A stretch of DNA of 64,000 nucleotides from Terriglobales bacterium. GTDB taxonomy: Bacteria > Acidobacteriota > Terriglobia > Terriglobales > Acidobacteriaceae. Of the stretch, positions 2,008 through 15,604 are shown piece by piece (within the stretch, counting starts at the first letter, position 1; every line of letters begins with the position of its first letter). Below the pieces are notes generated by a model that was given only the letters and a program-made list of their open reading frames with translations, had not been told where the DNA came from and made no database searches. The translations under genes and the position numbers were made by a program. The stretch spans positions 22,028 through 86,027 of the forward strand of contig JBJMGI010000092.1 of the NCBI GenBank assembly GCA_045807945.1. The letters are read 5' to 3'.

Positions 2008-3429
2008 CTATTGCGCGTGCAAGACGAGAGTCGCCACGCATCCCAAACGGTCACTTCTGTTTTCCAGGGTCAAAGTGCCGCCGTGGGCTTCGGCGATCTG
2101 CCGGCTAAGAGCCAGACCAATGCCGCTTCCTTGAGGTTTGGTCGTAAAAAAGGGAACAAACAGGTTCGCGGAGTTGGTGATCCCCTCTCCTTCGTCGCGC
2201 ACGTACATCTTGACCTTCTGGTCCGCAACCTCCCAGCCGAGCTCGACCTTGCCGCGAGTCGCAAGGCTTGCATCGATGGCGTTCTTCACCAGGTTGATGA
2301 GCAGCTGCTCGAGTTGCTCGCGATCAGCCTGCAGTTGCGCATCCGGCCCCGCGATCATTTCCACCGGAAGCCGCCCATCGGCAGCAGCCGCATGCGTAAC
2401 AAGCTCGCGCACATCGATATTCTTCTTCGTCGGCGAGGGGAGTCGCGCCAACCGTGTGTAGCCCTGCATGAATCGCGCCAGTGAATCGGAACGGGCGATT
2501 ATCACGTCGAGGCCGCGCATCACGTCCGACTTCCAATCCGCAGGAAGCTCCTGACGCTCGGTCACGGAACGCAACGTTCCCGCGATCGATTTTATCGGCG
2601 CGAGCGAATTATTGAGCTCATGCCCAAGCACGCGCGTGATGCGTTGCCATGCTTCACGTTCTTCGGTGCGCAGTGCGCGGCTAACATCGGAAACGAAAAG
2701 GAGCGTGTGTGGCACTCCGCGCTCGCGGAAAGCTCTGGTGTGGATCTGCCATCGCCCCTCGCGCCCTCCAAAGTTCGCCTGCACATCGCTCAGGTCGGCG
2801 GACTTCAGATACTCCTGTAGTCCCAGCTCGCCCGCAGATTGCCCGACCATGGCCTCGGAAGGTTGCGCCAGTAATTGCTCGCCCGCGCGGTTCACCATGC
2901 GCAGATGACCGGAGAGGTCAAAAATAAAGATTGCTACGTCGATCTCGGTCATGACCTGCTTCATCAGAGCGCTGGCTTCAATGTCGCGGTCCTGCCGTTC
3001 GCGAAGTGCTTGAGCGAGTGCGTTCGTCTCTAATACCAGCTCGCCCAGCGCGTCATGGTGTCCGCCACCGCGCGCCTTCACGGAATAATCTTCCTCGCGG
3101 ATCGCAGACAGCATGTTGGAGAGAGTCTGCAGCGGACGGAGGACAAGGTTTCTCAGGCTGATGGACGCCACAATCGCTAGTACAACGACGACGATCAGGA
3201 TGGTCCAGCGGGTCAGGGCTGCGAGGTCAGTCTGCCACAGCAGCACGGCGGCAAGTACAAAAGAGGGAAGAGTGATCAGCAGTGCTCGCGCCAGTACCCG
3301 GTGTTCGAAGCTTAACCCGCGTCTTGCCTGGCGCAGCGCATCGCTCGGCTGCGACACGCGTTCAGAGCCCATACTTCTCGATGCGCCGGTAGAGGCTTCC
3401 GCGGCTGAGCCCGAGGGTCTCTGCTGCAT
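2008..3429 (-). CDS. Sensor histidine kinase (TM-HAMP-PAS-HisKA-HATPase, NtrY/AtoS-like)
   Basis: H-box GHELNNSLAPIKSIAG, N-box LINLVKNAIDA, G-boxes DEGEGI / GSGIGLALS, and two N-terminal hydrophobic segments. An alternative start at 3372 (MGSERV) would overlap the upstream gene by only 11 nt. Confidence 0.85.
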   Translation of the reverse strand: MQQRPSGSAAEASTGASRSMGSERVSQPSDALRQARRGLSFEHRVLARALLITLPSFVLAAVLLWQTDLAALTRWTILIVVVVLAIVASISLRNLVLRPLQTLSNMLSAIREEDYSVKARGGGHHDALGELVLETNALAQALRERQDRDIEASALMKQVMTEIDVAIFIFDLSGHLRMVNRAGEQLLAQPSEAMVGQSAGELGLQEYLKSADLSDVQANFGGREGRWQIHTRAFRERGVPHTLLFVSDVSRALRTEEREAWQRITRVLGHELNNSLAPIKSIAGTLRSVTERQELPADWKSDVMRGLDVIIARSDSLARFMQGYTRLARLPSPTKKNIDVRELVTHAAAADGRLPVEMIAGPDAQLQADREQLEQLLINLVKNAIDASLATRGKVELGWEVADQKVKMYVRDEGEGITNSANLFVPFFTTKPQGSGIGLALSRQIAEAHGGTLTLENRSDRLGCVATLVLHAQ

Positions 3430-4732
3430 GGCTAACGTTGCCTCCGTGTCGCGAGAGCGCCTTGCGTATCAGCAGCGATTCTACTTCTTCCAGGCTCATC
3501 TCTTCGATGGGTTTGGTCCCATTTCGCGATTGCAGAGAGAGATCTTCCGGCCGGATGTTCTCGCCCGTGCTCATAAGAACCGCGCGCTCCACCGCGTGGT
3601 CCAGCTCGCGAACATTTCCTGGCCATGGATAGTCGAGCAGGTTTTTCAGCCCTGAGGGATCGAAGCCACTCACCGGCTTGCGGTACCGCTGCGCATATTC
3701 TTTTAGAAAGTGCGCCGCGAGAAGAGGTATGTCTTCCTTGCGCTCACGCAGTGGAGGAAGATGAACTTCAATGGTGTTCAGCCGGAACAAAAGGTCGGCA
3801 CGGAAGCGCCCCGAGTCCACCTCTGACTTCAACTCCGCATTCGTCGCCGAGAGCACTCGTACATTCACTTGCTTCGTACGCGACGAACCTACCCTCTCAA
3901 GCTCACCGCTCTCCAATACGCGCAGCAGTTTCGCCTGCTGCTTCATCGGAACATTTGCGATCTCGTCGAGGAACAGCGTGCCTCCATCGGCAAGCTCCCA
4001 TCGGCCAATGCGGTCCGTGCGAGCGTCGGTGAACGCGCCCTTCACGTGGCCGAAGACTTCGCTCTCGAAGGTCCCTTCGGAGAGCGCACCCGTATTTACC
4101 GTCACAAGTGGCTTGGACGCTCGCGCCGACAAGGCATGGAGCGTCTTGGCCACCACCTCTTTGCCTGTTCCGTGCTCGCCAGTAATAAGGATATTGGCGT
4201 CGGACGGCCCCACCCGGCTGATCAGCTCCAGCACTGGCCGCATTGCACGCGACTCGGCGATGAATGTTGGAAGCCCCTGGGCGCGGAGCAGTCTGTTCTC
4301 GGCCTCAAGCCGTCGTGCACGTCGCAAGCTACGGCTCAGCTCGACCTGCGTGCGCAGCACCGCGAGGAGCCGCTGGTTCTCCCACGGCTTCTGGATAAAA
4401 TCTCGCGCACCGCGCAGCATCGCCTGTACCGCAAGGTCAACGTTGGCCCATGCCGTCATTACGATCACCGGCAGGTCGCTGTCGATCGAACGAATAGATG
4501 AAAGAAGGTCGAGCCCTTCGTGCCCTGAAGTTGTGTCGCGGGTGTAATTAAGGTCGATGAGAGCTACGTCGAAATCGGCAGTCTGCATCGCTTCAATTGC
4601 CGCAGCGGGCGAAGAGACGATCTCACCTTGCATCTTTTCTGCCTTGATGAGCAGGCGCAGAGCTTCCCGGATGTCGGCCTGATCGTCGGCGACCAGGATG
4701 CGTGGAGCATCGGCTTGCTGTGCTGCTTCCAT
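3362..4732 (-). CDS. Sigma-54-dependent response regulator (REC - AAA+ - Fis-type HTH; NtrC family EBP)
   Basis: REC domain (ILVADDQ...IDLNY...), Walker A GEHGTGKE, ESEVFGH, GAFTDA (a variant of GAFTGA), Walker B TLFLDEI, PGNVREL, and C-terminal HTH AAETLGLSRGSLYRRIEKYGL. Confidence 0.9.
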   Translation of the reverse strand: MEAAQQADAPRILVADDQADIREALRLLIKAEKMQGEIVSSPAAAIEAMQTADFDVALIDLNYTRDTTSGHEGLDLLSSIRSIDSDLPVIVMTAWANVDLAVQAMLRGARDFIQKPWENQRLLAVLRTQVELSRSLRRARRLEAENRLLRAQGLPTFIAESRAMRPVLELISRVGPSDANILITGEHGTGKEVVAKTLHALSARASKPLVTVNTGALSEGTFESEVFGHVKGAFTDARTDRIGRWELADGGTLFLDEIANVPMKQQAKLLRVLESGELERVGSSRTKQVNVRVLSATNAELKSEVDSGRFRADLLFRLNTIEVHLPPLRERKEDIPLLAAHFLKEYAQRYRKPVSGFDPSGLKNLLDYPWPGNVRELDHAVERAVLMSTGENIRPEDLSLQSRNGTKPIEEMSLEEVESLLIRKALSRHGGNVSHAAETLGLSRGSLYRRIEKYGL

Positions 4733-4740
4733 GAATACCG

Positions 4741-6651
4741 TTATTGTGTTTTGCTCGGCACCACATCCTGCGCCTTCGGCATCTGGTGCAGCTCGCCGAC
4801 TTCTGCGTCCCGCATACTGATGTTCAGACGGTCCAGTGTGGCGCCGATAGAGCGGTCAAGCTCTACTCTCGACTTCTCATAGATAGTACTCGCAGCCACG
4901 AGGTTCGATTCAGCGACCGCGAGGTCGCGCCCGGCGACCAGCACCTGAGCACTGGTGGAAGCACCCAGGTCGAGCTTCTTCTGCTCAATCTCAAAACTCT
5001 TTTGCGCCAGGTCGCGCGCCTTCTGCGCGGCGAGGACTCGTGCCCGATTCTGTTTTACGGAGAACATCGCGTTCCTGACTTCGATCACGATTTGGTTCTT
5101 GAGCTGCTGGATACGTAGCTCGGCTTGCCGGTATTCCAGCTCCGAGCGCACTTGGTCGGCCTGCGCCGCGCGATTCCGCAAGGGGATATTCAAGTTCACC
5201 CCTATCGAATAGTCGGGCGAGGAATTGTTGAAGGTTCGTTGCAGAACGTCAGGGAAGCCGGTTGTCGCCAGCGGGGGTTCACCTTGAGCAAGCACGGCCG
5301 GATTCTGCACACCTGCTATACCCGAGCCGCCATAGAAACCAACTAGGTCCATTGTCGGCAGCAATGCATTCCTCGCTGCCTTCTTGGTGACTTGCCGGTT
5401 CTTGAGGTCCACGACTGCCTGGTACATTTCAGGCCGCTTGTCTACAGCTTCGTTGATAAGGTCCTGTACGGGACGCACGGGCTCACTCTCGGGCATGGAC
5501 ATCGTGTCCGTCGGCAGGACTTGAGTATCTGCCAAAGCAGTTTCCGCGAGAGTGCGGCTGATCGCGTTCTTCATAAGCAATTGCTGCAACTCGAAATTGC
5601 TCTCTGCCGTGATCAGCTCCTGGTTCCGCCCCTCGACTTCGGCTTCCGCGCGTAGAACTTCGATCGGCGCCATCGCCTGCAATTGCACCTGCTTGCGATT
5701 GTCTTCCAACGTTTTCTGCGCAAGCGTGAGCGAGCGTTCTTTAACCTTGGCGTCTTCGAATGCATTCACCAAGTCCCAATAGATGTTTTGGATCTGTGTG
5801 ACGGTTGCGATCACCTGGTTGCGAAAGCCGGCGTCCGCAATATTCTTGTTGTTCTTCGCGATCACTATGAAGCGGCGATTTGGGCCGAATCCGAAACCCG
5901 AGAGCAGTCTCTGCCGAAGTTCGAATTGCCCAGCCGAGTTCAATAGGGGGTTAAGCGAGGTAAACACGCTGCTGCTCGTCTGCCGCGAGTTGTTGAATCC
6001 GAAGGAGAGGCTTGTGCCGCTCGTGAACGCTTGCGTGTAAAGAAAATTTGCCGTCGCGGTGTTCTCCTGTAATTGCGCCGTGCCCGTCGTCACCGTGTTC
6101 GCTAGCGGAAAAGCGGCGTGCTCGATGCTCAAGTTGCCATTGATGGCGGGATCGAATGATTCCACCGCAGCACCTGTGCCGATGGTGGACTGCACCAGGC
6201 CCGAAGCTCCGGAACCGGCTCCGCCGGCCCCTCCACTCGTTCCGCCCGCTCCCGCCCCGGGAGCGTCGCTACCGAATCCGCCTACACCGCCGCCGGGAGT
6301 GCCTTGCACCAGTCCGCTCGCCACGCCGCGTGCGGAAGCGCCCGCTTTGGTTCTTAAAATGTCTGTGTCCGCGATCTGCAGGTTGTAACGCGAGATGGCG
6401 AGGTCCAGATTGTTCTCGAGCGCGAGCGCGATCGCGTCATCGAGCGAAAGCATCAGCTTCCCGTCTTTTATCAGATCCGCAAGCCGGGTCGAATTTGCCA
6501 GTGAGGCTGCCGGGACCGACCGGCCGATGTACGGTCCCACGGGATTGGGAAAGTAACCACGCGGCTTTCCATAATCAACGTTTGTTTGCTGCGGAAATGC
6601 AGTTGTAGCAAGCAGCAGTAGGATCACCAAACTCTTCCAAGAAGGGATCAT
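4741..6651 (-). CDS. TolC-family outer membrane efflux protein
   Basis: 636 aa with a signal peptide and two OEP repeats with the typical LSLDDAIALALENNLDL start motif. Its start overlaps the stop of the upstream ATPase gene (ATGA). Confidence 0.85.
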   Translation of the reverse strand: MIPSWKSLVILLLLATTAFPQQTNVDYGKPRGYFPNPVGPYIGRSVPAASLANSTRLADLIKDGKLMLSLDDAIALALENNLDLAISRYNLQIADTDILRTKAGASARGVASGLVQGTPGGGVGGFGSDAPGAGAGGTSGGAGGAGSGASGLVQSTIGTGAAVESFDPAINGNLSIEHAAFPLANTVTTGTAQLQENTATANFLYTQAFTSGTSLSFGFNNSRQTSSSVFTSLNPLLNSAGQFELRQRLLSGFGFGPNRRFIVIAKNNKNIADAGFRNQVIATVTQIQNIYWDLVNAFEDAKVKERSLTLAQKTLEDNRKQVQLQAMAPIEVLRAEAEVEGRNQELITAESNFELQQLLMKNAISRTLAETALADTQVLPTDTMSMPESEPVRPVQDLINEAVDKRPEMYQAVVDLKNRQVTKKAARNALLPTMDLVGFYGGSGIAGVQNPAVLAQGEPPLATTGFPDVLQRTFNNSSPDYSIGVNLNIPLRNRAAQADQVRSELEYRQAELRIQQLKNQIVIEVRNAMFSVKQNRARVLAAQKARDLAQKSFEIEQKKLDLGASTSAQVLVAGRDLAVAESNLVAASTIYEKSRVELDRSIGATLDRLNISMRDAEVGELHQMPKAQDVVPSKTQ

Positions 6652-7355
6652 CGAACTCCAGTTCCTGACACTTGCGAATTCGCGGTGTCGAAATCCAACC
6701 AGCCATCCAGCAATTTCACGATTCGACTCCCGTAAGCCGCATTCGCTTCCGAATGGCTCACCTGGACAATGGTCGTACCTTCACGGTTAAGCTGTTGAAA
6801 CAGTTCCATGATGGTTCTTGCCTGGTCGGAATGCAGATTACCGGTCGGCTCGTCTGCCAGCAGAAGTTTGGGATCGTTCACCACAGCGCGTGCGACGCCC
6901 ACGAGTTGCTGCTGTCCCCCCGAGAGCTGCGGAGGATAAAGGTCTTTTTTCCCGACAATGTGGAAGCGGTCGAGGATGTCGGCTACCTTGGCGGCTCGGT
7001 CGGAACGCTTGATGTCCTTATAGGAAAGCGGCAGGTCGATGTTCTCTGCGACGGTCAGATTGTCGAGCAGGTGGTAGCTCTGGAAAACAAATCCAATGTT
7101 CTTTTTGCTGAGCTCAACACGTTCCTTGCGGTTCAGTTTCTGGACGGGCTGCCCGTCGAAGATATATTCGCCTTCCCAGCTGTCATCGAGCATGCCCAGA
7201 ATGCTGAGCAGGCTCGTCTTGCCGGCGCCGCTCGGCCCCATTACAGTCACAAACTCGCCTGGTTCGATGGACAAGTTAATGCGACGCAGTACGAACGTCT
7301 CGCCCGCGGGGATCTTGTAACTCTTTTGTAGGTTCTTAAGTTCGATCATGGTCAT
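6648..7355 (-). CDS. ABC transporter ATP-binding protein (MacB/LolD type)
   Basis: Walker A GPSGAGKT, signature LSGGQQQ, Walker B LLLADEPTGNL, H-loop VSH. Start chosen at MTMIELKNL (7355); its ATG overlaps the TGA of the upstream permease (ATGA). Confidence 0.9.
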   Translation of the reverse strand: MTMIELKNLQKSYKIPAGETFVLRRINLSIEPGEFVTVMGPSGAGKTSLLSILGMLDDSWEGEYIFDGQPVQKLNRKERVELSKKNIGFVFQSYHLLDNLTVAENIDLPLSYKDIKRSDRAAKVADILDRFHIVGKKDLYPPQLSGGQQQLVGVARAVVNDPKLLLADEPTGNLHSDQARTIMELFQQLNREGTTIVQVSHSEANAAYGSRIVKLLDGWLDFDTANSQVSGTGVR

Positions 7356-9871
7356 TCGTAGCGCAGCGCCACCATGGGATCTACTTTCGTCGCGCGTCGA
7401 GCGGGGATCATGCTGGCCAAGACCCCGACCGCCGCCAGGATTGCGACGACGACAACAAGCGAAAGCGGGTCGGTATTCTGCAATCCGAATAACATGCTGT
7501 TGATCAGGCGCGTGCACAGAATCGCCAGCGGAACGCCGATACAGATCCCCACTCCGACAAGCAGCATCGACTCGCGCATCACTAGAGTGAGCACGTTTCC
7601 CCGCTGCGCGCCCAACGCCATGCGCACCCCGATCTCGCGTGTGCGGCCGGCGACTGTGTACGCCATCACCCCATACAGGCCTATGCAGGCCAACGCAAGC
7701 GCGAGAGCCCCAAAAAAAGTGGAGAGCTTGGCGATTGTGATTTCGTTGCTGATCGTCGAATCGACCAAGTAATCCATTGTCTTGATGCTGCTGATCGGCA
7801 GACCCGAGTTGAACGACTTGATCTCAGCCCGCGCGGTTTCCGTCATAGCATCAGGATTCACGGCTGTTCTGATGGCTATTTGCATCAGTCCAAGAGCTTC
7901 GTCCGTCTGCGAGATGGGTCGATAAAACATTGGCGGGATCGGCTTCTCGAGGCTTTGATGGCGCACATCGCGAACCACACCAACTATCTGCATTGGTTTA
8001 TCGACATACTTCGGATCGTCGATTGCGAAGTGGCGACCCATCGGGTCCTGTCCATGAAAGAAAAAGTTCACGAACTGCTGGTTAACCACGGCCACTCGGG
8101 TTGAGCTTGCAGTGTCTTGGGCGCCGAACTCGCGGCCCTCTATAACCGGGATGCTGAGTGCGGAAAAGAATCCCGGGCTGATTTTGTCCCACGATGCCTG
8201 CTTCTGGTCCTCATTGGCGGGGACAAAGTTTTCCACGTTGATGCTGCTGTCGCTATCAGAGCCGGAAAAGAGGCCTGACTCCGAAATTGCGACTTGCTTC
8301 ACTCCGGGCATTCTTTCCAGCCGTCTTTGCAGCTCATCAGCGACTTGGGTTGAAGCGGCGGGCGTCTCATAGCCGGCAGTGATCGGGTCCACGCGTACCA
8401 GCAACAAGTGGTCGCGGCTAAACCCTAACTGCACGTTTTCCAGATTTTTTAGGCTGCGGATCAGGAGACCGGCGGCGAACAGCACCAGCACAGAAAGAGC
8501 AACCTGTGCCGCCACGAGAAGCTTGCCCCATTGGAAACCACCGCGCGTTCCTGATTCGCCGGCGCTAACGCCGCCTTTGAGTGCCGAGTTCACATCAACT
8601 TTAAGAGATCGTAAAGCCGGCACCAATCCAAACAGGATGCCCGTCAGCAGGCATACGCTTGCGGTGAAGGCGAGCACGCGAAGATCGGGCGTGATCTGCA
8701 ATCCCGTACTTGCCACTGTGACTCCGAAGAGCCGCAGGAGGAGCTGTGTTCCCCAGAATGCGAACAAAAGTCCCAAACCTCCACCCAGGAAAGCCAGCAA
8801 CACGCTCTCGGTCAGTAGTTGCGAGACCACGCGCGACGGCTTGGCGCCGATCGCGAGCCGCACCGCCATCTCTCGTTGTCGTACCTTCGCGCGGGCGAGC
8901 AAAAGGTTGGCGACATTCACGCACGCTATAAGCAGCACCAGTCCCACGATCCCCATCAGGAGCATCAATGGCTTTGCAAAGCTGCCGCGCAGTACGGACA
9001 TTCCCCGTGCCCCGGGGACGACATCAATCGGGTGTTTCTTCACTTCGACCAGATCGTTCTGTCGAAGCCGCGCGCCGAATGATCCATTCAATGCTTGTTG
9101 CAGCACAACGTTCAAATTTGCCTTTGCTTGTGAAACCGAGACACCAGGCTTGAGCCGTGCCATCAGCGTGAGCCAAGAAGATTCAGGATCGTCGAGCCAC
9201 TTGCGACCGCGGAGCACCTGCGATTGCATCATCATGGGGATCCAAACTTCCTGAACGTCTCCGACGACTTGCCCGTGGAACCCCGGCGGCGCCACTCCGA
9301 CGACCGTGAGCGGGTACTCGTTGAAGCGAAGTGTAGTACCCACGATGCTCGGGTCTGAGTTGAAGCGGCTGCGGAACATGGAGTAGCTGATGACCGCGAT
9401 CGGGTGTCCTCCTTCAACTTTGTCGTCGTCGGGCGTCAGGGTCCTTCCTATGTACGGGTTTACACCAAGCAGCGAGAAGTAATTCCCAGTGACTAGCGAA
9501 CCCACCACTTCGTCGGAAATGCTCTTTCCAGATGCATCCGCGGTGCGGACTCGATGTATTTCCCCCGCAGCGAGCACATCTTCAAAGACGTTGTTGTGGT
9601 CGCGGATCTCCTTGTAGAGCGGGTAAGAGAAGATGTCCGTCTGCGGAGTGCCATGGGAACGGTTGTGCGCCAGCGTCGGATCGCCGATCACCACCAGCCG
9701 CTGCACGTCGCGCACCGGCAGCATCTTCAGGATGACTGCGTTGATCAGTGTGAAGATGGCGGTGTTCGCGCCGATGCCCAGAGCCAAGGTGAGCACGGCT
9801 ACGGTCGTGAAGCCGGGCGACTTGGCTAACATTCTGAATGCGTAGCGGACGTCTTGCAGGATCGATTCCAT
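7352..9871 (-). CDS. ADOP-type duplicated MacB/FtsX permease (839 aa, no NBD)
   Basis: N-terminus LQDVRYAFRMLAKSPGFTTVAVLTLALGIGANTAIF. Two MacB-periplasmic-domain plus FtsX modules. C-terminus PARRATKVDPMVALRYE. Its ATG directly follows the TAA of the preceding gene. Confidence 0.85.
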   Translation of the reverse strand: MESILQDVRYAFRMLAKSPGFTTVAVLTLALGIGANTAIFTLINAVILKMLPVRDVQRLVVIGDPTLAHNRSHGTPQTDIFSYPLYKEIRDHNNVFEDVLAAGEIHRVRTADASGKSISDEVVGSLVTGNYFSLLGVNPYIGRTLTPDDDKVEGGHPIAVISYSMFRSRFNSDPSIVGTTLRFNEYPLTVVGVAPPGFHGQVVGDVQEVWIPMMMQSQVLRGRKWLDDPESSWLTLMARLKPGVSVSQAKANLNVVLQQALNGSFGARLRQNDLVEVKKHPIDVVPGARGMSVLRGSFAKPLMLLMGIVGLVLLIACVNVANLLLARAKVRQREMAVRLAIGAKPSRVVSQLLTESVLLAFLGGGLGLLFAFWGTQLLLRLFGVTVASTGLQITPDLRVLAFTASVCLLTGILFGLVPALRSLKVDVNSALKGGVSAGESGTRGGFQWGKLLVAAQVALSVLVLFAAGLLIRSLKNLENVQLGFSRDHLLLVRVDPITAGYETPAASTQVADELQRRLERMPGVKQVAISESGLFSGSDSDSSINVENFVPANEDQKQASWDKISPGFFSALSIPVIEGREFGAQDTASSTRVAVVNQQFVNFFFHGQDPMGRHFAIDDPKYVDKPMQIVGVVRDVRHQSLEKPIPPMFYRPISQTDEALGLMQIAIRTAVNPDAMTETARAEIKSFNSGLPISSIKTMDYLVDSTISNEITIAKLSTFFGALALALACIGLYGVMAYTVAGRTREIGVRMALGAQRGNVLTLVMRESMLLVGVGICIGVPLAILCTRLINSMLFGLQNTDPLSLVVVVAILAAVGVLASMIPARRATKVDPMVALRYE

Positions 9872-12295
9872 TTACTCGTACCTCAGGGCGACCATGGGGT
9901 CCACATTGGTGGCGCGCCGCGCCGGGATCAAACAAGCAATGATTGCGACCGCGAACAGGAGCGCGGGAATCACAAAGAACGTGAGCGGGTCGTGCGCGCT
10001 CACGCCGTACAAGAGCGAGCTCATGAGGCGGGTCAAGGCGGATGCTAAAAAGATTCCAATAGTGGCTCCGATAACCGCGAGTCGTGCACCCTCGCCAAGG
10101 ATCATCGTCAGAACATTTCCTCGCGTGGCACCCAGCGCCATACGCACGCCGATCTCGCGCGTCCGTTGGATCACACCCTGCGAGATCACTCCGTACGCTC
10201 CGACGCAGGCGAGAGCAAGCGCGGCACATCCAAACACCGCAAGCAGCAACATGGTAACGCGTCGGATGGCCATCATCTCCTTCGCTGCCGTTTCCATGCT
10301 GACCACACGTATCACTGGCTGGTCCTTGTCCACGCTCCAGATCGCCTGCCGCGCGGAGTTGACCACCGAGTCGGGGTCGCCATTCGTGCGCAACGTGAAT
10401 GCCATCATCTGAAAGAGGTACGGACTCTGGTTGTACGAGACATACATCTCCGGCTGAATGTCTTGATCTAGGCCGGCATGTTTAACGTCGTTGATGATGC
10501 CAACGATTTGTGCCCAGTGTGGTTTTCCGGGCTCACCAAAATCGACCCGCTTCCCAATCGCGTCTTTGTCGGCAAAAAAGTTCTTGGCGAATCTTTCATT
10601 CACCACGGCTACCAGCGGGGAATTCAATCGGTCGGTATCGTTGAAGCCGCGACCCTTGAGGACGCTGATACGCATCACGGCGAAATATGCAGGCGTGACC
10701 ACGCGGAAAGCCGATTCCGGCTGGTCCTGGGGATTAGGCGAGGTGCCTTCGATGGTAAAGGTGGTGGTTGAATCAAATCCGCTAAGCGGAAGAAAGTCGA
10801 TTGCCGCCGCGTGCTGCACCCCAGGGGTGCCCGAGAGCGCGGGAAGTAGCCGGTCCATATAGGCGCGCTTTGCGGGATCATCGGGATATTTCTTCTCCGA
10901 CATAGTGATGTACATCGTCAGCACGTCGGAGGGATCGAAGCCATACGACATCCGCTGCAATCGGTCAAAACTCTTTATCGTTAACCCCGCCCCGATCAGG
11001 ACCACGACCGCAATCGATATTTCCGCGACCACCAATGCATTGCGGAGCCACTTGCTTCGCTTGCTGATGCCAGATGAACCGCTCGCGTCTTTCATGCTTT
11101 GGGCGACGTTGCCGGAACTGCTGTGCAACGCGGGCGGCAATCCAAACAGCAGCCCCGTGAGCAGGACCAGTCCTCCGCAAAACGCAAGCACTGAGGCGTT
11201 GATAGGAATACTCTCGACCCGCGGTATTCCCAGGTTATAGATATGAGTAGGGAAGACGGCAACCAGTCCGCGGGTGACCCAGTAAGCGCACAAAACTCCA
11301 AGCGCCCCTCCGATAGCGGAGAGCAACAGACTTTCGGAAAGGAGCTGGCGGATGAGATCGGTACGGCCTGCCCCAAGTGCAACCCGTACCGAGATCTCGC
11401 GCGTGCGGGCGTGCATGCGCGAGAGCATCAGATTGGCTACATTCGCTACGGCTATCAGCAGCAAAAGTCCGACCGCGCTAAACAGGATCAGTAGTGTCGG
11501 ACGGATGTCCCCGACCTTTCCCTCGCGAAAGTCTCTGAGCAGCACGCCCCAACCGGCATTCGTTTCTGGATGCTCTATCGCCAACTGCTTGGCGATGGAA
11601 TTCAATTCGTCGCTGGCTTGCTGCATTGTGACCCCCGGCCGCAAGCGACCCACTAGTCGAAGGTCGAACTTGTCGCGGTCCTGGTAGCTGGCCGGATCCA
11701 TATCGAGCGGAAGCCAGAGCTCGCCATTCTCTGGTTGTCGGAAGTCTTGTGGCATCACGCCAATAACCGTGTGCGGTGTTCCGTTCAAGGTGATGCTTTT
11801 GCCGACGATACTTGCATCTCGCGCCAAGCGGCGGTCCCAAAGTCTATAGCTGATCACCACCACCGGTGCGTGCGCGGTGCCATCTTCCTGCTCGGAAAAA
11901 GTGCGACCCATCAACGGCGGGACATCCAGCGCCTGGAACATGCTATGCGCGAATCGATAACCGGTGATGGCTTCTGGTTCACCGTTGCCGGTCAAGTCGA
12001 CCGGGCGAAGGTCACGCGAGACGCCGATCACTTCAAAGGAATGGCTGCGCTGCTTCCAATCGAGATAGTTTGCGGGACGCACCGGTGTGCGATGCGCTTT
12101 CATTTCACGAATATCTACCAGCCGGTCCGAGTGAGGAAAGGGCAGCGGTTTCAGCAGGACCTCGTTCACGACCGCGAAGATGGCGGTGTTCGCGCCGATG
12201 CCGAGCGCGATACAAATTACTACCGTGATGGAGAAAGCGGGATTCTTGAGCACAGTCCGCATAGCCATGCGGATATCGTGCAACAGCCGTTCCAT
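9872..12295 (-). CDS. ADOP-type duplicated MacB/FtsX permease (807 aa, no NBD)
   Basis: Start chosen at MERLLHDIRMAMRTVLKNPAF, with GGGGAG 7 nt upstream. Same duplicated architecture as its neighbour, ending PARRATNVDPMVALRYE. Confidence 0.85.
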   Translation of the reverse strand: MERLLHDIRMAMRTVLKNPAFSITVVICIALGIGANTAIFAVVNEVLLKPLPFPHSDRLVDIREMKAHRTPVRPANYLDWKQRSHSFEVIGVSRDLRPVDLTGNGEPEAITGYRFAHSMFQALDVPPLMGRTFSEQEDGTAHAPVVVISYRLWDRRLARDASIVGKSITLNGTPHTVIGVMPQDFRQPENGELWLPLDMDPASYQDRDKFDLRLVGRLRPGVTMQQASDELNSIAKQLAIEHPETNAGWGVLLRDFREGKVGDIRPTLLILFSAVGLLLLIAVANVANLMLSRMHARTREISVRVALGAGRTDLIRQLLSESLLLSAIGGALGVLCAYWVTRGLVAVFPTHIYNLGIPRVESIPINASVLAFCGGLVLLTGLLFGLPPALHSSSGNVAQSMKDASGSSGISKRSKWLRNALVVAEISIAVVVLIGAGLTIKSFDRLQRMSYGFDPSDVLTMYITMSEKKYPDDPAKRAYMDRLLPALSGTPGVQHAAAIDFLPLSGFDSTTTFTIEGTSPNPQDQPESAFRVVTPAYFAVMRISVLKGRGFNDTDRLNSPLVAVVNERFAKNFFADKDAIGKRVDFGEPGKPHWAQIVGIINDVKHAGLDQDIQPEMYVSYNQSPYLFQMMAFTLRTNGDPDSVVNSARQAIWSVDKDQPVIRVVSMETAAKEMMAIRRVTMLLLAVFGCAALALACVGAYGVISQGVIQRTREIGVRMALGATRGNVLTMILGEGARLAVIGATIGIFLASALTRLMSSLLYGVSAHDPLTFFVIPALLFAVAIIACLIPARRATNVDPMVALRYE

Positions 12296-12309
12296 GATGG
12301 GCTCCCCGA

Positions 12310-13011
12310 TTAGGCGTGGACGCTTTCTTCGACCACTTTGCCATCGAACATGTGGATAGTGCGCTGTGCATGCCGCGCGAAACGCTCGTCGTGCGTCACC
12401 ATGCAAATGGTTGCGCCTTCGCGGTGAAGTTCTTGCAGCAGCTGCATCACTGCTTCGCCGTTCCGCGAATCAAGGTTCCCGGTCGGCTCGTCTGCCAGCA
12501 GGATGAGCGGCTTGCCGGCGAGAGCACGCGCCACTGCGACGCGCTGCTGTTGACCGCCGGAAAGTTGCGAAGGGTAGTGACGCATGCGATGCGCCATGCC
12601 CACGCGCTCCAGCGCATTATGGACGCGGTCCTTGCGTTCCGCGGCCGACATGTCGCGATACGTGAGTGGCAGCTCGACATTTTCGTAGACAGTAAGATCG
12701 CCGATCAGGTTGAAACTCTGGAAGATGAAGCCGATCTCCTGATTGCGGATGCGCGCGCGGTCTGCGAAATCCAAGCCTTGCACCGGCTTATTGTTCAGCA
12801 GATAAACACCGTCCGTCGGAGAATCGAGCAGCCCCAGGATGGAAAGGAGCGTGGATTTTCCGCAACCCGAAGGTCCGGCCATAGCGACGTATTCGCCGTC
12901 GGTGATATCGAGATGGATTCCGGAGAGCGCGTGCGTCTCTACTTCATCCGTGTAGAAGACCTTCGTGACGTTCTCGAGATGGATCAGTGTCTTTCCTGCC
13001 ATTTTGTTCAC
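12310..13011 (-). CDS. ABC transporter ATP-binding protein (MacB/LolD type)
   Basis: Walker A GPSGCGKST, signature LSGGQQQRV, Walker B LILLADEPTGNLD, H-loop VTHD. Confidence 0.9.
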   Translation of the reverse strand: MNKMAGKTLIHLENVTKVFYTDEVETHALSGIHLDITDGEYVAMAGPSGCGKSTLLSILGLLDSPTDGVYLLNNKPVQGLDFADRARIRNQEIGFIFQSFNLIGDLTVYENVELPLTYRDMSAAERKDRVHNALERVGMAHRMRHYPSQLSGGQQQRVAVARALAGKPLILLADEPTGNLDSRNGEAVMQLLQELHREGATICMVTHDERFARHAQRTIHMFDGKVVEESVHA

Positions 13012-13022
13012 CCTTCGCTTGA

Positions 13023-14276
13023 TCAGTCGAATCGGATTCGATCTGCTTTCTCCCAGCGCGACATATCCGAGAGGACCACTTGGTCGCCTTCTTTCAATCC
13101 GCCTAGGATCTCGATCGCGGTCACTGAGCTGCGACCGAGTTCCACTTGCACTCGGCTCGCGCCCTTTCCGTCCGGATCGAGCTTGAACATACCCACTGTG
13201 CTCTTTTCTTGTCCGAATGCGGGACGGCCAACGTAAAGCACATTCGAGAGCTGCTCGAGGTTGATGGTGCCGTCCACGCTTAAATCAGGACGCGCGCCTT
13301 TCGGCAATGCGTCGGTTAACTGCACGTCGACTGTTACAGTGCCGTTCTGTACCGCCGGGTCCACGCGCATGACTGAACCGTTGATAACTCCGTTGTGCGT
13401 ATCGATAGACGCTGGCTGGCCGATTTGGATATCTTTCGCCTGCGTCTCAGGAACTTTTAATTCCGCCTTCAGCATTTCTGGCTGCGCCACGCGGGCGAGG
13501 TTGGTTCCCGGCGTCACGCGTTGTCCGACTTGCACCGGGACTTCCTGCAAGACTCCGTCGATGCCGGCGCGAACCTTCAAAGCGTCATACTGCTTGCGGC
13601 GCAGTTGTGCCATGGCGCGCAGCTCGGCGACGCGTGCCTGCTGCACCGCCATCTGCGAGCCTACGGCTTCGCTGTTGATCTCAATCCGCTTCTGCTCGAT
13701 CTCGTGCCGCGTCGCAAGCTCGTGCTCTTTCCCTTCCGATGTCTTAAGGGCTTGTCCAGAAATAACGCCCAACTTCGCCAGTTCGGAATCGATCTCCGCC
13801 TGCCTCTTCGCGTTGTTGTAATCAGCCGAGACGGTCGCCGCGCCGGCTTTCTGCGTCATCAGATCGCCTTCAACTTTTACCCGCGCATTTTTCAATTCGG
13901 CTTCCGCTGCGCGAAGCTGCCACTCAGCGTCGACCATCTCTTGCTCCGCCTGGGGATTGCTCAATTCCATGATGATCGTGTCCGCTTTGACAGGCGTGCC
14001 GGCGAGAACACGAATGCGTTCCACGCGTGCTTCTGTTTCTGCTGGGATCCAGCGGATCTCTACGGGCACCAGCGTTCCTAGACCGCGCACCTGGCGAAGA
14101 ATGGAGCCGCGCTTCACGGTATCGGTCCACACAGTGCCGCGCTCAACGGAGGGCGCCGCCGGCTTCAGTCGCGAAACACCGATCGTGACGGCTACGATAA
14201 AGACCAAGGCGACTGCCGCGAGGGCGATCCGCTTCTTGCGTTTTGCGTCGGCGTTAGATGGGCGAGGAATATCCAT
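13023..14276 (-). CDS. HlyD/MacA-family periplasmic adaptor (membrane fusion protein)
   Basis: 417 aa: N-terminal TM anchor, long coiled-coil hairpin region, then beta-barrel and MP domains. First gene of the operon. Confidence 0.85.
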   Translation of the reverse strand: MDIPRPSNADAKRKKRIALAAVALVFIVAVTIGVSRLKPAAPSVERGTVWTDTVKRGSILRQVRGLGTLVPVEIRWIPAETEARVERIRVLAGTPVKADTIIMELSNPQAEQEMVDAEWQLRAAEAELKNARVKVEGDLMTQKAGAATVSADYNNAKRQAEIDSELAKLGVISGQALKTSEGKEHELATRHEIEQKRIEINSEAVGSQMAVQQARVAELRAMAQLRRKQYDALKVRAGIDGVLQEVPVQVGQRVTPGTNLARVAQPEMLKAELKVPETQAKDIQIGQPASIDTHNGVINGSVMRVDPAVQNGTVTVDVQLTDALPKGARPDLSVDGTINLEQLSNVLYVGRPAFGQEKSTVGMFKLDPDGKGASRVQVELGRSSVTAIEILGGLKEGDQVVLSDMSRWEKADRIRFD

Positions 14277-14292
14277 TTATGTTTTATGTACG

Positions 14293-14309
14293 ATGCACGC
14301 CGCGTGCCA
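14293..14309 (-). promoter_or_regulatory. Predicted sigma-54 promoter P2 (TGGCACGCGGCGTGCAT)
   Basis: The minus strand reads TGGCACG-CGGC-GTGCAT, against the consensus TGGCACG-N4-TTGCW. GG (14308-14307) to GC (14296-14295) spacing is canonical. The predicted TSS is about 7 nt upstream of the adaptor ATG (14276). Confidence 0.6.
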
Positions 14310-14365
14310 GTTCCTGCATTTGCTTTCTCTCAGAAGTCATTGGTTTTAATGAACTTTCCTTAGCG

Positions 14366-15577
14366 TCACTGTCCGGCGCTGATATCAGACTGTCCGTTAC
14401 CGGACACCTCATCCACAGCCAAGACGAGCGCCGTTGTGTCGTCCTTCAGCTGTCCTGCGCAATGCCGCACTGCGTCTTCGAGAACCTGGTGGAGTATCGC
14501 CTCGCTGCTTCGGTGTCGGCACGTGAGCGCTCGCCTAAGCAGACCCTCTTCACCGATTTCGTTTCCGTCTTCGTCGCAGGACTCGAGCAGCCCGTCCGTC
14601 ACCGCGATCAAACGATCGCCGCTCTCGAATCTCGCTGTCCCTTCGTGGTACGACCACAACGGAATCGCTCCGAGCAGTGCATCGTCGCTCTGCAGGCGTT
14701 CGACCGAGCCGTCGCGCTTCAACATGAATGCGGGGGAGTGTCCTGCATTGGTGTAGCGCATTAAGCCGCTCCGCGTGTCCACCAGACCGTAAAACATCGT
14801 TGTGAGGCGCTGCAGCCGCGACTCGAACATCCGTCGATTCAGGCGCGCGCAGACCTCGGCAGGGCTCGCGACGTGCGTCGCGTCCGACCTGACGTGCGCC
14901 TGCAGGTTCGCCATCGCCAATGCCGCTCCCGTCCCTTTTCCCATCGAGTCAGCGATGCAGAAGACAAATTCATTGTCACTAAGAGGGAACGAGTCGAAGT
15001 AGTCTCCGCCCACGAGGTTCGCTGAGCGCGTGGCTCCAGCCACAGAAAATCTCCCGTAAATCTTGTGCGCTGCGCCCATCAACGCTTCTTGCACTTCGAG
15101 TGCGTCTTCATTAGCCCGCATTAGCTGCGAGGCTCGCGAGCGGCGCTCGCGCGTCACCGACGCCTGTAGCGCAATGATCTTCAATGCAGCGTCGTTCTCC
15201 CACGGCTTTTGCAGGAAGTCTGCCGCCCCGCGCTGTAGCGATGCAACGGCAACCTCGATCGTGCTCCAGGCGGTCATCACAATGATCTGCAGATGCGGGT
15301 CGCGACTACGGATCGCATCGATCAACTCCAAACCTTCCTGTCCGGAAGTAGTGTCGCGCCCATAGTTCATATCCATGAGTAGCAGGTCGAACCCTCGGCC
15401 ATTCGCGATCTCGTTGAGCACTTCTTTAGGCGAGTGTGCCACGGCGACTTCCATCCCCGCCGACTTCAGTAGGAACTGCAGCGCCTGGATGATGCCTTCC
15501 TGATCGTCCGCGACGAGGATTCTGAAATGCTCTTCGCCCGCGTAGCTCGGCGCTTTCGATGTGAGTGGTTGTTCCAC
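14366..15577 (-). CDS. Response regulator with PP2C/SpoIIE phosphatase output (REC-PP2C, RsbU-like)
   Basis: The REC domain (ILVADDQ..MDMNYGRDTTSGQEGL..IVMTAW..DFLQKPWEN) is very similar to the REC of the EBP at 3362..4732. The PP2C motifs are GGDYFD, CIADSMGKGTGAALAMA and VTDGLLE. GTG start. Confidence 0.85.
   Translation of the reverse strand: MEQPLTSKAPSYAGEEHFRILVADDQEGIIQALQFLLKSAGMEVAVAHSPKEVLNEIANGRGFDLLLMDMNYGRDTTSGQEGLELIDAIRSRDPHLQIIVMTAWSTIEVAVASLQRGAADFLQKPWENDAALKIIALQASVTRERRSRASQLMRANEDALEVQEALMGAAHKIYGRFSVAGATRSANLVGGDYFDSFPLSDNEFVFCIADSMGKGTGAALAMANLQAHVRSDATHVASPAEVCARLNRRMFESRLQRLTTMFYGLVDTRSGLMRYTNAGHSPAFMLKRDGSVERLQSDDALLGAIPLWSYHEGTARFESGDRLIAVTDGLLESCDEDGNEIGEEGLLRRALTCRHRSSEAILHQVLEDAVRHCAGQLKDDTTALVLAVDEVSGNGQSDISAGQ
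14370..14406 (-). promoter_or_regulatory. Putative enhancer (UAS) for P2: TGTCCG-gtaa-CGGACA-N14-CCGGACA
   Basis: The minus strand carries a 16-bp inverted repeat (14406..14391) plus a third half-site (14376..14370), 60 nt upstream of the -24 element. It lies inside the last 15 codons of the REC-PP2C gene. Confidence 0.5.
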
Positions 15578-15587
15578 GCTCTACTAT

Positions 15588-15604
15588 TTGCAACTGAACG
15601 GCCA
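15588..15604 (-). promoter_or_regulatory. Predicted sigma-54 promoter P1 (TGGCCGTTCAGTTGCAA)
   Basis: GG at 15603-15602 and GC at 15591-15590, canonical spacing, perfect TTGCA -12 box. The predicted TSS falls about on the GTG start (15577), so the transcript would be leaderless or the start call is off. Confidence 0.5.

What the first reader, a model, noticed from the sequence alone, without database searches (positions are those of the whole stretch)
2008..14276. ADOP 'orphan' permeases embedded in a complete 8-gene MacA-ABC-TolC export operon that also encodes its own sigma-54 activator and kinase
Reading the minus strand from 14276 to 2008, the gene order is: HlyD/MacA adaptor, ATPase, ADOP, ADOP, ATPase, TolC, NtrC-type activator, histidine kinase.

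The junctions are 11 nt, 14 nt, 0 nt (TAA directly followed by ATG), ATGA overlap, ATGA overlap, 8 nt, and a final overlap. That pattern indicates one translationally coupled unit.

Each ADOP (807 and 839 aa) carries the MacB-type TM, periplasmic-domain and FtsX module twice and has no nucleotide-binding domain. Each is therefore a covalent pseudo-dimer of the MacB membrane part.

As I recall the TIGRFAMs description, the family was named for not lying next to an ATPase. Here two copies sit between two distinct LolD/MacB-type ATPase genes, together with an adaptor and an outer-membrane duct.

I know of no assigned substrate or demonstrated partner set for any ADOP. This locus would therefore be a good entry point to the family.

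The sequence leaves one question open. Two fused-dimer permeases plus two different ATPases could mean two parallel pumps sharing one MacA/TolC. Alternatively they could form a single hetero-assembly.
Basis: partly seen in the sequence, partly recalled or inferred. Interest (0 to 1): 0.75.

Follow-up and report, generated by a model that had tools for sequence, protein, structure and literature searches.

The report
ADOP permeases with their missing ATPases
A soil Terriglobales genome carries "orphan" double-permease (ADOP) genes inside a sigma-54-controlled efflux-pump operon that supplies two ATPases, an adaptor and an outer-membrane duct, and the same cassette recurs in many soil metagenomes, sometimes without any permease, giving this large uncharacterised family its first plausible partners.

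Summary
On the minus strand, 14276-2008 encodes HlyD/MFP, ATPase-1, ADOP (807 aa), ADOP (839 aa), ATPase-2, a TolC-like OMF, an NtrC-type activator and a histidine kinase. The junctions are 11, 14, 0, -4, -4, 8 nt and an overlap. Both ADOPs score above the TIGR03434 cut-off, contain 2x MacB_PCD + 2x FtsX, and have no NBD.

The unit is larger than reported. A third ADOP (15702-18146) and a receiver-PP2C gene (14366-15577) lie upstream. Each of the three units has a -24/-12 sigma-54 promoter, and two have a TGTCCG-N4-CGGACA palindrome about 90 bp upstream.

The locus is not unique. Of 80 metagenome loci holding ATPase-2 orthologues (67-96% identity), most have ADOPs upstream and NtrC/HK downstream. 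ATPase-1 and ATPase-2 are two conserved clades separated by 0-3 ADOP genes. Fifteen loci carry the chassis but no permease. Meanwhile 18 of 20 sampled ADOP loci in genomes have no ATPase within 10 kb.

Best reading: an inducible type VII ABC tripartite pump whose ATPases, adaptor and duct are shared by interchangeable ADOP permeases. This is a new variant of a known kind. The substrate is unknown.

The parts
18260..18275 (.). Candidate activator-binding palindrome (CGTCCGCAATCGGACA, 1 mismatch to TGTCCG-N4-CGGACA), with a second CGGACA half-site at 18240-18245. It lies about 80 bp upstream of the ADOP3 -24 element.
   Evidence: same arrangement in orthologous locus L102
18174..18189 (-). Sigma-54 -24/-12 promoter-like site TGGCCGCGCAATTGCA, 27 nt upstream of the ADOP3 ATG
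15702..18146 (-). ADOP3, third ADOP-family duplicated permease (814 aa). It forms its own transcription unit with no adjacent ATPase.
   Evidence: TIGR03434 at 963 bits, 2x MacB_PCD + 2x FtsX; 33-37% identical to ADOP1 and ADOP2
15589..15604 (-). Sigma-54 -24/-12 promoter-like site TGGCCGTTCAGTTGCA, ending 11 nt before the GTG start of the receiver-PP2C gene. A CGGACA half-site lies at 15654-15659.
14366..15577 (-). Response-regulator receiver fused to a SpoIIE/PP2C phosphatase (403 aa). Its receiver is 46% identical to that of the NtrC-type activator.
   Evidence: conserved in L102
14391..14406 (.). Perfect palindrome TGTCCGTTACCGGACA with a second CGGACA at 14370-14375. It is a candidate enhancer (UAS) for the NtrC-type activator, about 90 bp upstream of the HlyD -24 element.
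   Evidence: only 3 exact copies in 1.23 Mb held, all upstream of cassette sigma-54 promoters
14294..14309 (-). Sigma-54 -24/-12 promoter-like site TGGCACGCGGCGTGCA, 17 nt upstream of the HlyD ATG
   Evidence: equivalent GGCAC-N6-TGC sites upstream of HlyD in 5 of 6 related loci
13023..14276 (-). Periplasmic adaptor (HlyD/MacA-type membrane fusion protein, 417 aa, one N-terminal TM)
   Evidence: TIGR01730 above cut-off, HlyD_3, HlyD_D23; TM at 17-35
12310..13011 (-). ATPase-1 (ATP1 clade), a LolD/MacB-type ABC NBD with canonical motifs and D-loop GNLDS
9872..12295 (-). ADOP1 (807 aa), a fused double MacB-type permease with 8 TM (4+4)
   Evidence: AlphaFold2 pLDDT 82.8; best structural match YbbP
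7352..9871 (-). ADOP2 (839 aa), a fused double MacB-type permease. Its second periplasmic domain evolves fast.
6648..7355 (-). ATPase-2 (ATP2 clade), an ABC NBD with canonical Walker A/B, LSGGQ and H-loop but a clade-wide D-loop His (GNLHS)
4741..6651 (-). TolC-like outer-membrane factor (636 aa, signal peptide, 2x OEP, Gly-rich insert)
3362..4732 (-). NtrC-type sigma-54 activator (REC, AAA+ sigma-54 interaction domain, HTH_8; loop motif GAFTDA)
2008..3429 (-). Histidine kinase (probable start Met20 at 3372). It has two TM helices about 5 residues apart, which is the intramembrane-sensing type, followed by PAS, an H-box and HATPase_c.

Best explanation
The locus encodes an inducible tripartite envelope-spanning pump of the MacB (type VII ABC) kind.

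Proposed assembly. Each ADOP is a complete pseudo-dimeric membrane and periplasmic unit with 8 TM helices, two periplasmic domains and two coupling helices. It docks two separately encoded NBDs drawn from ATPase-1 and/or ATPase-2. It connects through the HlyD-type adaptor to the TolC-like duct. The pump would expel a substrate taken from the periplasm or the outer leaflet by mechanotransmission, as in MacAB-TolC.

Proposed sharing. ATPases, adaptor and duct form a constant chassis. ADOP1, ADOP2 and the separately transcribed ADOP3 are alternative permeases that plug into it, and orphan ADOPs elsewhere probably do the same.

Proposed regulation. Expression depends on sigma-54. The intramembrane-type kinase phosphorylates the NtrC-type activator, which binds tandem TGTCCG-N4-CGGACA sites about 90 bp upstream of -24/-12 promoters. 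This switches on the HlyD...HK operon (autoregulation), ADOP3 and the receiver-PP2C gene.

Shown: gene content, domains, fold, junctions, motif integrity, promoter and UAS motifs, and conservation of the cassette. Inferred: physical assembly, sharing of ATPases, direction of transport, substrate and signal.
For: Domains and family scores come, and tight or overlapping junctions.

Structure. The AlphaFold2 model of ADOP1 (pLDDT 82.8) has 8 TM helices and short helices at 298-306 and 712-720. Its best PDB match is E. coli YbbP over the full length, followed by MacB halves. YbbP binds two YbbA through two coupling helices (PMC12646458).

NBD docking. Coupling-helix residues E300, R304, G308, A309 and R711, R718, A720, G722 are invariant across 58 ADOPs, including orphan-context ones. 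The motif R..EI.VR.ALGA is present in both halves. Both ATPases have intact catalytic motifs.

Cassette conservation. L013 (Gemmatimonadales) has HlyD-ATP1-ATP1-ADOPx4-ATP2-...-NtrC-HK. Among the 80 ATP2-orthologue loci, an ADOP lies directly upstream in 34 of 54 evaluable loci, NtrC or TolC lies directly downstream in 36 of 52, and an NtrC orthologue lies within 6 kb in 23 of 32.

Chassis without permease. ATP1 and ATP2 are separated by 0, 1, 2 or 3 ADOPs in 9, 4, 5 and 2 loci. Fifteen loci have the chassis but no FtsX-type permease at E<0.01.

Regulation. There are three -24/-12 sites in about 0.4 kb of promoter-proximal DNA, against a background of 0.066 per kb per strand. Sigma-54 sites lie upstream of HlyD in 5 of 6 other loci, against a background of 0.148 per kb. 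The exact UAS palindrome occurs only 3 times in 1.23 Mb, each time 90-110 bp upstream of a cassette sigma-54 promoter.
Against: There is no experimental or RNA evidence. The substrate is unknown. Within the flanks held, about half of the informative ATP2 loci lack ATP1, so the two ATPases are not obligatorily linked. The OMF is present directly downstream of ATP2 in only 12 of 52 loci. The activator carries GAFTDA rather than the canonical GAFTGA. Only 2 of 48 ADOP starts in the genome-scan loci (L001-L020) plus the window have a sigma-54 site, and one of the two is the window's own ADOP3, so orphan arrays in that sample are not generally part of the same regulon. No whole-genome census of ADOP versus ATP1/ATP2 counts could be run.
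Confidence: 0.7

Rival explanations
1. Two dedicated parallel pumps. An ATPase-1 homodimer serves ADOP1 and an ATPase-2 homodimer serves ADOP2. Only the adaptor and duct are shared.
For: Each ATPase gene abuts one ADOP gene, with a 14-nt gap and an ATGA overlap. The two ATPase clades are distinct and each is conserved: 0.76 and 0.73 identity within clades, 0.44 between. Homodimeric NBDs on asymmetric permeases are the rule in LolCDE and YbbAP (PMC12646458).
Against: The number of ADOPs between ATP1 and ATP2 varies from 0 to 3 while the ATPase types stay at two. Arrays of 3-5 ADOPs precede a single ATP2. ADOP3 has no ATPase of its own but has the same promoter type as the ATPase operon and a UAS one mismatch from the palindrome. 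Permease-less chassis loci exist.
Confidence: 0.15
2. ATPase-1 and ATPase-2 form one obligate heterodimeric motor, with one NBD on each half of the asymmetric ADOP.
For: ATP1 and ATP2 are adjacent, with no ADOP between them, in 9 loci. The ATP2 clade has an invariant D-loop His (38 of 38) where ATP1 keeps Asp (23 of 23), which is an asymmetry at the NBD dimer interface. The N-half and C-half coupling helices have distinct half-specific consensus sequences.
Against: A subgroup has ATP2-TolC-NtrC-HK with no ATP1 within 10 kb (L025, L028). L017 shows only an ATP2-like gene. Both NBDs have fully canonical catalytic sites.
Confidence: 0.3
3. The module is mainly a sensing and resistance device of the BceAB-BceS type. 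The ADOP transporter reports its own substrate load to the intramembrane kinase. It protects the envelope against antimicrobial peptides or lipopeptides rather than secreting a self-made product.
For: The HK has two TM helices about 5 residues apart and therefore no periplasmic sensor domain. The HK and activator are conserved next to the ATPase in 23 of 32 loci. BceAB is also a fused type VII permease and is among the structural matches. No biosynthetic genes are seen next to the cassette.
Against: The partner regulator is NtrC-type, not OmpR-type. A cytoplasmic PAS domain could be the sensor instead. The presence of an adaptor and OMF points to trans-envelope export.
Confidence: 0.3
4. The adjacency is incidental. 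ADOPs are ATP-independent membrane proteins that merely inserted into an ABC/MFP/OMF operon.
For: Most ADOP loci have no ATPase: 18 of 20 genome loci, plus L103 and L104.
Against: ADOPs are translationally coupled to the ATPase genes. The arrangement recurs across Acidobacteriota, Gemmatimonadota and Planctomycetota. The coupling-helix residues are invariant. Chassis loci contain no alternative permease.
Confidence: 0.05

Closest known systems
[quoted passage not shown]
   Same: A single polypeptide carries two MacB-type modules with two periplasmic domains, two coupling helices and a separately encoded LolD-like ATPase. YbbP is the best full-length structural match to the ADOP1 model (TM 0.42-0.45).
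   Different: YbbP has 10 TM helices, with two linker helices; ADOP has 8 (4+4). Identity over the structural alignment is 14%, and phmmer with ADOP1 gave no YbbP hit. YbbAP has one ATPase type, no adaptor or OMF, and a TesA hydrolase partner. It is not sigma-54 regulated.
MacAB-TolC tripartite efflux pump (PMC5985334)
   Same: The adaptor, TolC-type duct and type VII ABC architecture are shared. MacB_PCD and FtsX domains are present. The NBDs belong to the MacB/LolD clade.
   Different: MacB is a homodimer with an N-terminally fused NBD. Here the two permease halves are fused to each other and the NBDs are separate and of two kinds. There are multiple alternative permeases per operon.
DarBCD darobactin exporter (NF038007/8/10; PMC8442675)
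   Same: It combines a duplicated roughly 780-aa permease, an adaptor and a separate ATPase. DarD is the top NCBIfam hit for both ATPases. DarC aligns end to end with the adaptor.
   Different: All scores are far below the equivalog cut-offs (257 and 246 against 375; 79 against 450; 25-35 against 700). No RiPP or biosynthetic genes are nearby. DarBCD has one ATPase.
BceAB-BceRS flux-sensing resistance modules
   Same: A fused type VII permease with a separate ATPase is genetically linked to a kinase with two closely spaced TM helices and no extracytoplasmic domain.
   Different: BceB has 10 TM helices and one extracellular domain. The regulator is OmpR-type and sigma-70 dependent. These are Firmicutes systems with no adaptor or OMF.
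Orphan ADOP arrays (TIGR03434) of Acidobacteriota, and also Bacteroidota (PMC3914696, PMC11573002)
   Same: It is the same protein family. ADOP1 is 52% identical to an orphan-context ADOP (P0013), which is closer than to its operon neighbour ADOP2 at 37%.
   Different: Orphan arrays have no ATPase, adaptor, OMF or regulator within 10 kb, and in the genome-scan sample they generally have no sigma-54 promoter.

Membership tests
ADOP family duplicated permease (TIGR03434) | Full-length match above the curated cut-off | tested here: met
   953, 960 and 963 bits against a cut-off of 622 for ADOP1, ADOP2 and ADOP3
ADOP family duplicated permease (TIGR03434) | Two FtsX permease modules with two MacB-type periplasmic domains and no NBD | tested here: met
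   2 stretches each of PF02687 and PF12704, and no PF00005; 8 TM helices
ADOP family duplicated permease (TIGR03434) | 'Orphan' context, meaning no adjacent ABC ATPase gene. This is descriptive and gave the family its name. | tested here: not met
   ADOP1 and ADOP2 are flanked by ATPase genes. The feature holds for 18 of 20 sampled loci elsewhere.
Type VII (MacB-type) ABC tripartite efflux pump | Four-TM module with a large periplasmic domain between TM1 and TM2 and a coupling helix between TM2 and TM3 | tested here: met
   Present twice per ADOP; Foldseek matches to MacB, LolCE and YbbP
Type VII (MacB-type) ABC tripartite efflux pump | MacB/LolD-clade NBD with intact Walker A/B, signature and H-loop | tested here: met
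   ATP2 has a D-loop His
Type VII (MacB-type) ABC tripartite efflux pump | NBD fused to the N-terminus of the permease, as in MacB itself | tested here: not met
   The NBDs are separate genes
Type VII (MacB-type) ABC tripartite efflux pump | Cognate periplasmic adaptor and TolC-family duct | tested here: met
   Adaptor hits TIGR01730 at 118 bits against 94.9. The OMF has 2x PF02321 at 138 bits, although TIGR01844 is below its cut-off (65 against 225).
Type VII (MacB-type) ABC tripartite efflux pump | Physical assembly and ATP-driven export of a substrate | not testable with these tools
   Requires biochemistry or multimer modelling
YbbAP-type fused permease | 10-TM topology with two linker helices, and a TesA partner | tested here: not met
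   8 TM helices. No SGNH or thioesterase family was reported for any cluster gene scanned against Pfam.
DarBCD exporter | Equivalog-level HMM scores for DarB, DarC and DarD | tested here: not met
   All far below the cut-offs
Sigma-54-dependent two-component system (NtrB/NtrC type) | REC + AAA+ sigma-54 interaction domain + Fis-type HTH | tested here: met
   PF00072, PF00158 (210 bits) and PF02954
Sigma-54-dependent two-component system (NtrB/NtrC type) | GAFTGA sigma-54 contact loop | tested here: inconclusive
   GAFTDA in the window and in 33 of 34 cassette orthologues
Sigma-54-dependent two-component system (NtrB/NtrC type) | -24/-12 promoter with an upstream enhancer at the target genes | tested here: met
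   Three promoters in the window, conserved in related loci, with a tandem palindromic UAS. The motifs alone are the evidence; no transcript data exist.
BceS-type intramembrane-sensing kinase | Two TM helices with a minimal extracytoplasmic loop, linked to a type VII ABC transporter | tested here: met
   TM helices at 26-44 and 50-68; linkage shown
BceS-type intramembrane-sensing kinase | OmpR-type partner regulator, and a kinase-transporter complex | tested here: not met
   The partner is NtrC-type. Complex formation is not testable here.

The most novel reading that the evidence does not exclude
ADOPs are not orphans. They are interchangeable, substrate-specific plug-in permeases for a shared chassis made of the ATP1 and ATP2 ATPases, one adaptor and one TolC-like duct. 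A genome would encode one or a few chassis loci, sometimes with no permease at all. It would also encode dozens of ADOPs in cis or in trans, whose fast-evolving second periplasmic domain sets specificity. That would make a combinatorial envelope-clearing repertoire in the dominant soil phyla, switched on through sigma-54 by an intramembrane-sensing kinase.
Probability: 0.35. Interest if true: 0.8.

Novelty: new variant of a known kind. Interest (0 to 1): 0.62.

Why it matters
ADOPs are among the largest paralogous families in Acidobacteriota. The held literature contains no substrate, partner or structure for the family.

This cassette supplies a concrete and conserved partner set: two ATPase clades, an adaptor, a duct, a regulator, its promoter and its likely binding site. 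It also yields a testable explanation for the orphan status, because permease-less chassis loci complement ATPase-less ADOP arrays.

Finally, it defines an 8-TM fused topology for a type VII ABC permease, distinct from the 10-TM YbbP and BceB.

Tried and rejected
1. A global test for sigma-54 sites in the window was not significant: 27 matches against 19 expected at up to 2 mismatches. Only position relative to gene starts gives meaning.
2. Sigma-54 sites upstream of orphan ADOPs. Only 2 of 48 ADOP starts (the L001-L020 genome loci plus the window) had one, and one of the two is the window's own ADOP3. I therefore dropped the idea that all ADOPs belong to one sigma-54 regulon.
3. A search for 8-12-mers shared by all three promoters found none. 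The UAS was found by eye as a palindrome and then tested.
4. Nearest-neighbour analysis of orphan-context against cassette-context ADOPs was confounded by orthologous loci in the sample and is not used as evidence.
5. The genome-contig scan with ADOP2 found no close orthologue (at most 44% identity), so synteny in close relatives came from metagenome contigs instead.
6. The terminator and sigma-70 promoter scan of 1500-19000 gave nothing above shuffled expectation.
7. A 735-aa 'fused ATPase' ORF in L035 turned out to be a spurious frame with no Pfam hit.
8. A UAS-like site upstream of an orphan ADOP in L006 has no recognisable -24/-12 element downstream.

Full report
OBSERVATION. The eight minus-strand genes exist exactly where stated. 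The junctions read 11 nt, 14 nt, TAA directly followed by ATG, ATGA, ATGA, 8 nt and an overlap. Pfam and NCBIfam give the following.
- HlyD-type adaptor: TIGR01730 at 118 bits against a cut-off of 94.9.
- Two ABC NBDs: PF00005. Their best NCBIfam hits are DarD, LolD and MacB, all below the equivalog cut-offs.
- Two ADOPs: TIGR03434 at 953 and 960 bits against 622, each with two MacB_PCD and two FtsX stretches and no NBD.
- A 636-aa OMF with two OEP repeats.
- An activator with REC, a sigma-54 interaction AAA+ domain and HTH_8.
- An HATPase_c kinase.

Two small corrections apply. JGI called the kinase from Met20, giving an 11-nt overlap. ATPase-1 may start at the ATG 9 nt downstream of the GTG. 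The source is a Terriglobales MAG contig: P0001, the exact match, is named 'MAG: ABC transporter permease [Terriglobales bacterium]'.

Immediately upstream on the same strand lie a receiver-SpoIIE/PP2C gene (14366-15577) and a third ADOP (15702-18146; 963 bits). The three ADOPs are only 33-37% identical to each other, so they are old paralogues.

Each of the three units is preceded by a -24/-12 element:
- TGGCACGCGGCGTGCA at 14294-14309
- TGGCCGTTCAGTTGCA at 15589-15604
- TGGCCGCGCAATTGCA at 18174-18189

With GG and GC fixed and up to 2 other mismatches, such sites occur at 0.066 per kb per strand in 0.78 Mb of related DNA. Three correctly oriented sites in about 0.4 kb of promoter-proximal DNA are therefore far beyond chance, even though the window-wide count is not enriched.

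About 80-90 bp upstream of two of these promoters sits a palindrome. It is TGTCCGTTACCGGACA at 14391-14406 (exact) and CGTCCGCAATCGGACA at 18260-18275. Each is followed about 21 bp later by a further CGGACA half-site. The third promoter has one half-site.

One copy is in the window. The others are in L080 and L081, each 90-110 bp upstream of a sigma-54-type site that precedes the first gene of a related cassette. One-mismatch copies occupy the equivalent positions in the orthologous locus L102. This is the classical enhancer-plus-promoter layout of NtrC-type activators. It implies that the operon-encoded activator drives its own operon, ADOP3 and the receiver-PP2C gene. No sigma-70 promoters or terminators above shuffled expectation lie inside the cluster.

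THE PROTEINS. Hydropathy analysis and an AlphaFold2 model (58-sequence alignment, pLDDT 82.8, pTM 0.71) show that ADOP1 has 8 TM helices in a 4+4 arrangement. It has two beta-rich periplasmic domains and short cytoplasmic helices at 298-306 and 712-720, between TM2/3 and TM6/7.

Foldseek places E. coli YbbP (9GE6/9GE7) first over the whole length, with TM-scores of 0.42-0.45. MacB, LolC/E, BceB, HrtB and YtrF halves follow. In the YbbAP structure, one fused permease binds two YbbA NBDs through two coupling helices, but YbbP has 10 TM helices (PMC12646458). BceB also has two extra helices (PMC5985334). ADOP is therefore a third, 8-TM way of fusing two MacB modules.

The coupling-helix residues are invariant across 58 ADOPs that include orphan-context members: E300, R304, G308, A309 and R711, R718, A720, G722. 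The motif R..EI.VR.ALGA is found in both halves of most ADOPs, whether in cassette or orphan context. This argues that all ADOPs dock NBDs.

Both ATPases keep Walker A/B, LSGGQ and the H-loop. The ATP2 clade uniformly has His in place of the D-loop Asp (38 of 38, against Asp in 23 of 23 ATP1).

The kinase has two TM helices only about 5 residues apart, so it has no periplasmic sensor domain. The activator and 33 of 34 orthologues carry GAFTDA instead of GAFTGA.

COMPARATIVE CONTEXT. A scan of one genome per GTDB species with ADOP2 returned 20 loci at 33-44% identity. Eighteen are single ADOPs or tandem arrays with no ABC ATPase, adaptor, OMF or NtrC within 10 kb. The nearest non-orthologous relatives of ADOP1 (P0013 at 52%, P0038 at 45%) are likewise orphan pairs. 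So the 'orphan' description is accurate for the bulk of the family.

Two genome loci are different. L013 (a Gemmatimonadales MAG) has HlyD-ATP1(75%)-ATP1-ADOPx4-ATP2(66%)-x-NtrC(67%)-HK(49%). L017 (a Planctomycetota MAG) has an ATP2-like gene (65%) inside an ADOP array, with an OMF downstream.

A metagenome scan with ATPase-2 found 489 relatives, and the best 80 (67-96% identity) were analysed.
- An ADOP lies directly upstream in 34 of 54 evaluable loci, and ATP1 in 6 of 54.
- Directly downstream lies NtrC in 24 of 52, TolC (followed by NtrC-HK where the contig extends far enough) in 12 of 52, or another ADOP in 8 of 52.
- An NtrC orthologue (60-74% identity) lies within 6 kb in 23 of 32.

ATP1 and ATP2 are two well-separated clades: 0.76 and 0.73 identity within clades, 0.44 between. 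They are far more conserved than the ADOPs (32-48%).

Where both ATPases are seen, 0, 1, 2 or 3 ADOP genes separate them in 9, 4, 5 and 2 loci. Fifteen loci of 7-20 kb contain ATP2, with or without HlyD, ATP1, TolC and NtrC/HK, but no FtsX-type permease at all at E<0.01. Examples are L081 (HlyD-ATP1-ATP2-TolC-NtrC) and L025/L028 (ATP2-TolC-NtrC-HK).

Close relatives keep the full arrangement. L101 (ADOP1 80% identical) has ATP1-ADOP-ADOP-ATP2-OMF-NtrC-HK. L102 (89%) has ADOP3, receiver-PP2C, HlyD and the rest of the cluster in the same order. Sigma-54 sites of the form GGCA[CA]-N6-[TC]GC precede HlyD in 5 of 6 further loci, against a background of 0.148 per kb.

INTERPRETATION. The constant parts are two ATPase clades, an adaptor, often an OMF, and the NtrC/HK pair with its promoter and UAS. 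They behave as a chassis. The ADOP genes are a variable insert whose number ranges from none to at least four.

Three points follow from the invariant coupling helices and the existence of ATPase-less ADOP arrays elsewhere.
1. Each ADOP, being a complete pseudo-dimer, most likely forms its own transporter with two NBDs.
2. The ATPases, adaptor and duct are most likely shared between ADOP1, ADOP2 and the separately transcribed but similarly promoted ADOP3.
3. The same sharing in trans plausibly explains orphan ADOPs.

A single hetero-assembly of two ADOPs is unlikely on structural precedent. Whether the motor is ATP1x2, ATP2x2 or ATP1/ATP2 cannot be decided from sequence. The D-loop asymmetry and the frequent ATP1-ATP2 adjacency hint at a heterodimer. 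The ATP2-only loci hint at a homodimer.

The substrate is unknown. The adaptor and OMF, and the MacB precedent, suggest export from the periplasm or the outer leaflet. The intramembrane kinase suggests induction by an envelope-active compound, possibly sensed through the transporter as in BceAB-BceS.

Between the window and its nearest relative L021, ATP2, OMF and NtrC are 94-96% identical, but ADOP2 is only 71%. Identity falls to 30-60% in periplasmic domain 2 (residues 481-680). This is consistent with that domain carrying a fast-evolving specificity.

LITERATURE. The library holds only two papers that use the ADOP name. One describes a highly expressed island of ADOP paralogues (ten in the text, eight in the figure legend) in Psychroflexus torquis, alongside transporters with ATP-binding regions and a thioesterase (PMC3914696). 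The other is a copy-number note for Dyadobacter (PMC11573002). The thioesterase is reminiscent of YbbAP-TesA. No paper links ADOPs to sigma-54 or to a defined partner set. DarBCD is the nearest relative with an assigned substrate. It is described as a permease, membrane-fusion protein and ATPase exporter, and deleting it lowers darobactin titres 2-4-fold (PMC8442675).

VERDICT. The locus is a representative of a widespread, undescribed cassette. That lowers its uniqueness but raises its value as an entry point. It is a new variant of a known kind: a type VII ABC tripartite pump. Interest is 0.62. The most novel reading that remains open is the shared-chassis, plug-in-permease model, with a probability of about 0.35.

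Noticed in passing
window 19570-22078 (minus strand): Two single-module MacB-type permease genes (432 and 411 aa, 34% identical, overlapping by 26 nt) have no ATPase, adaptor or OMF next to them. This is another ATPase-less permease pair, transcribed away from the ADOP cluster. L102 holds a MacB_PCD-containing gene on the opposite strand, beyond the ADOP3 orthologue, in a comparable position.
   Followed up: partly
window 44263-49083 (minus strand): An FTR1/FtrD-like iron permease is followed by two FtsX/MacB_PCD permeases and a 402-aa ORF that joins an ABC NBD to an iron-dependent-repressor C-terminal domain (Fe_dep_repr_C). This is an unusual fusion if it is a single gene.
   Followed up: no
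window 43063-43078 (+): The sigma-54-like site TGGCACTCGGCGTGCA is nearly identical to the HlyD promoter element. It lies 5 nt before the ORF start of a TonB_C-domain protein (43084-44160). The true start is probably further downstream.
   Followed up: no
window 14277-14309 and 15578-15604: The -12 elements lie only about 11-17 nt from the start codons of the receiver-PP2C and HlyD genes. This implies leaderless or near-leaderless mRNAs, or mis-set starts. No Shine-Dalgarno sequence is visible.
   Followed up: no
window 7352-9871 compared with L021 469-2982: ADOP2 is 71% identical to its orthologue, while the flanking ATP2, OMF and NtrC are 94-96% identical. Divergence is concentrated in periplasmic domain 2 (residues 481-680, 30-60% identity).
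   Followed up: partly
window 3362-4732 and 34 orthologues in L-loci: The sigma-54 contact loop reads GAFTDA instead of the canonical GAFTGA in 33 of 34 activators of this cassette family.
   Followed up: partly
window 14366-15577: The receiver domain of the receiver-PP2C phosphatase is 46% identical to the receiver of the NtrC-type activator, and the gene has its own sigma-54 promoter. It could be a second output branch of the same kinase. It was not detected in the more distant cassette loci.
   Followed up: partly
L035 9301-9861: A CpxP/Spy-like LTXXQ (Metal_resist) periplasmic protein gene sits between ATP1 and ATP2 in a permease-less chassis locus. This hints at a link to envelope stress.
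   Followed up: no
window 4741-6651: The TolC-like OMF is unusually long (636 aa). It has a Gly/Ala/Ser-rich low-complexity stretch after the signal peptide, roughly residues 105-150.
   Followed up: no
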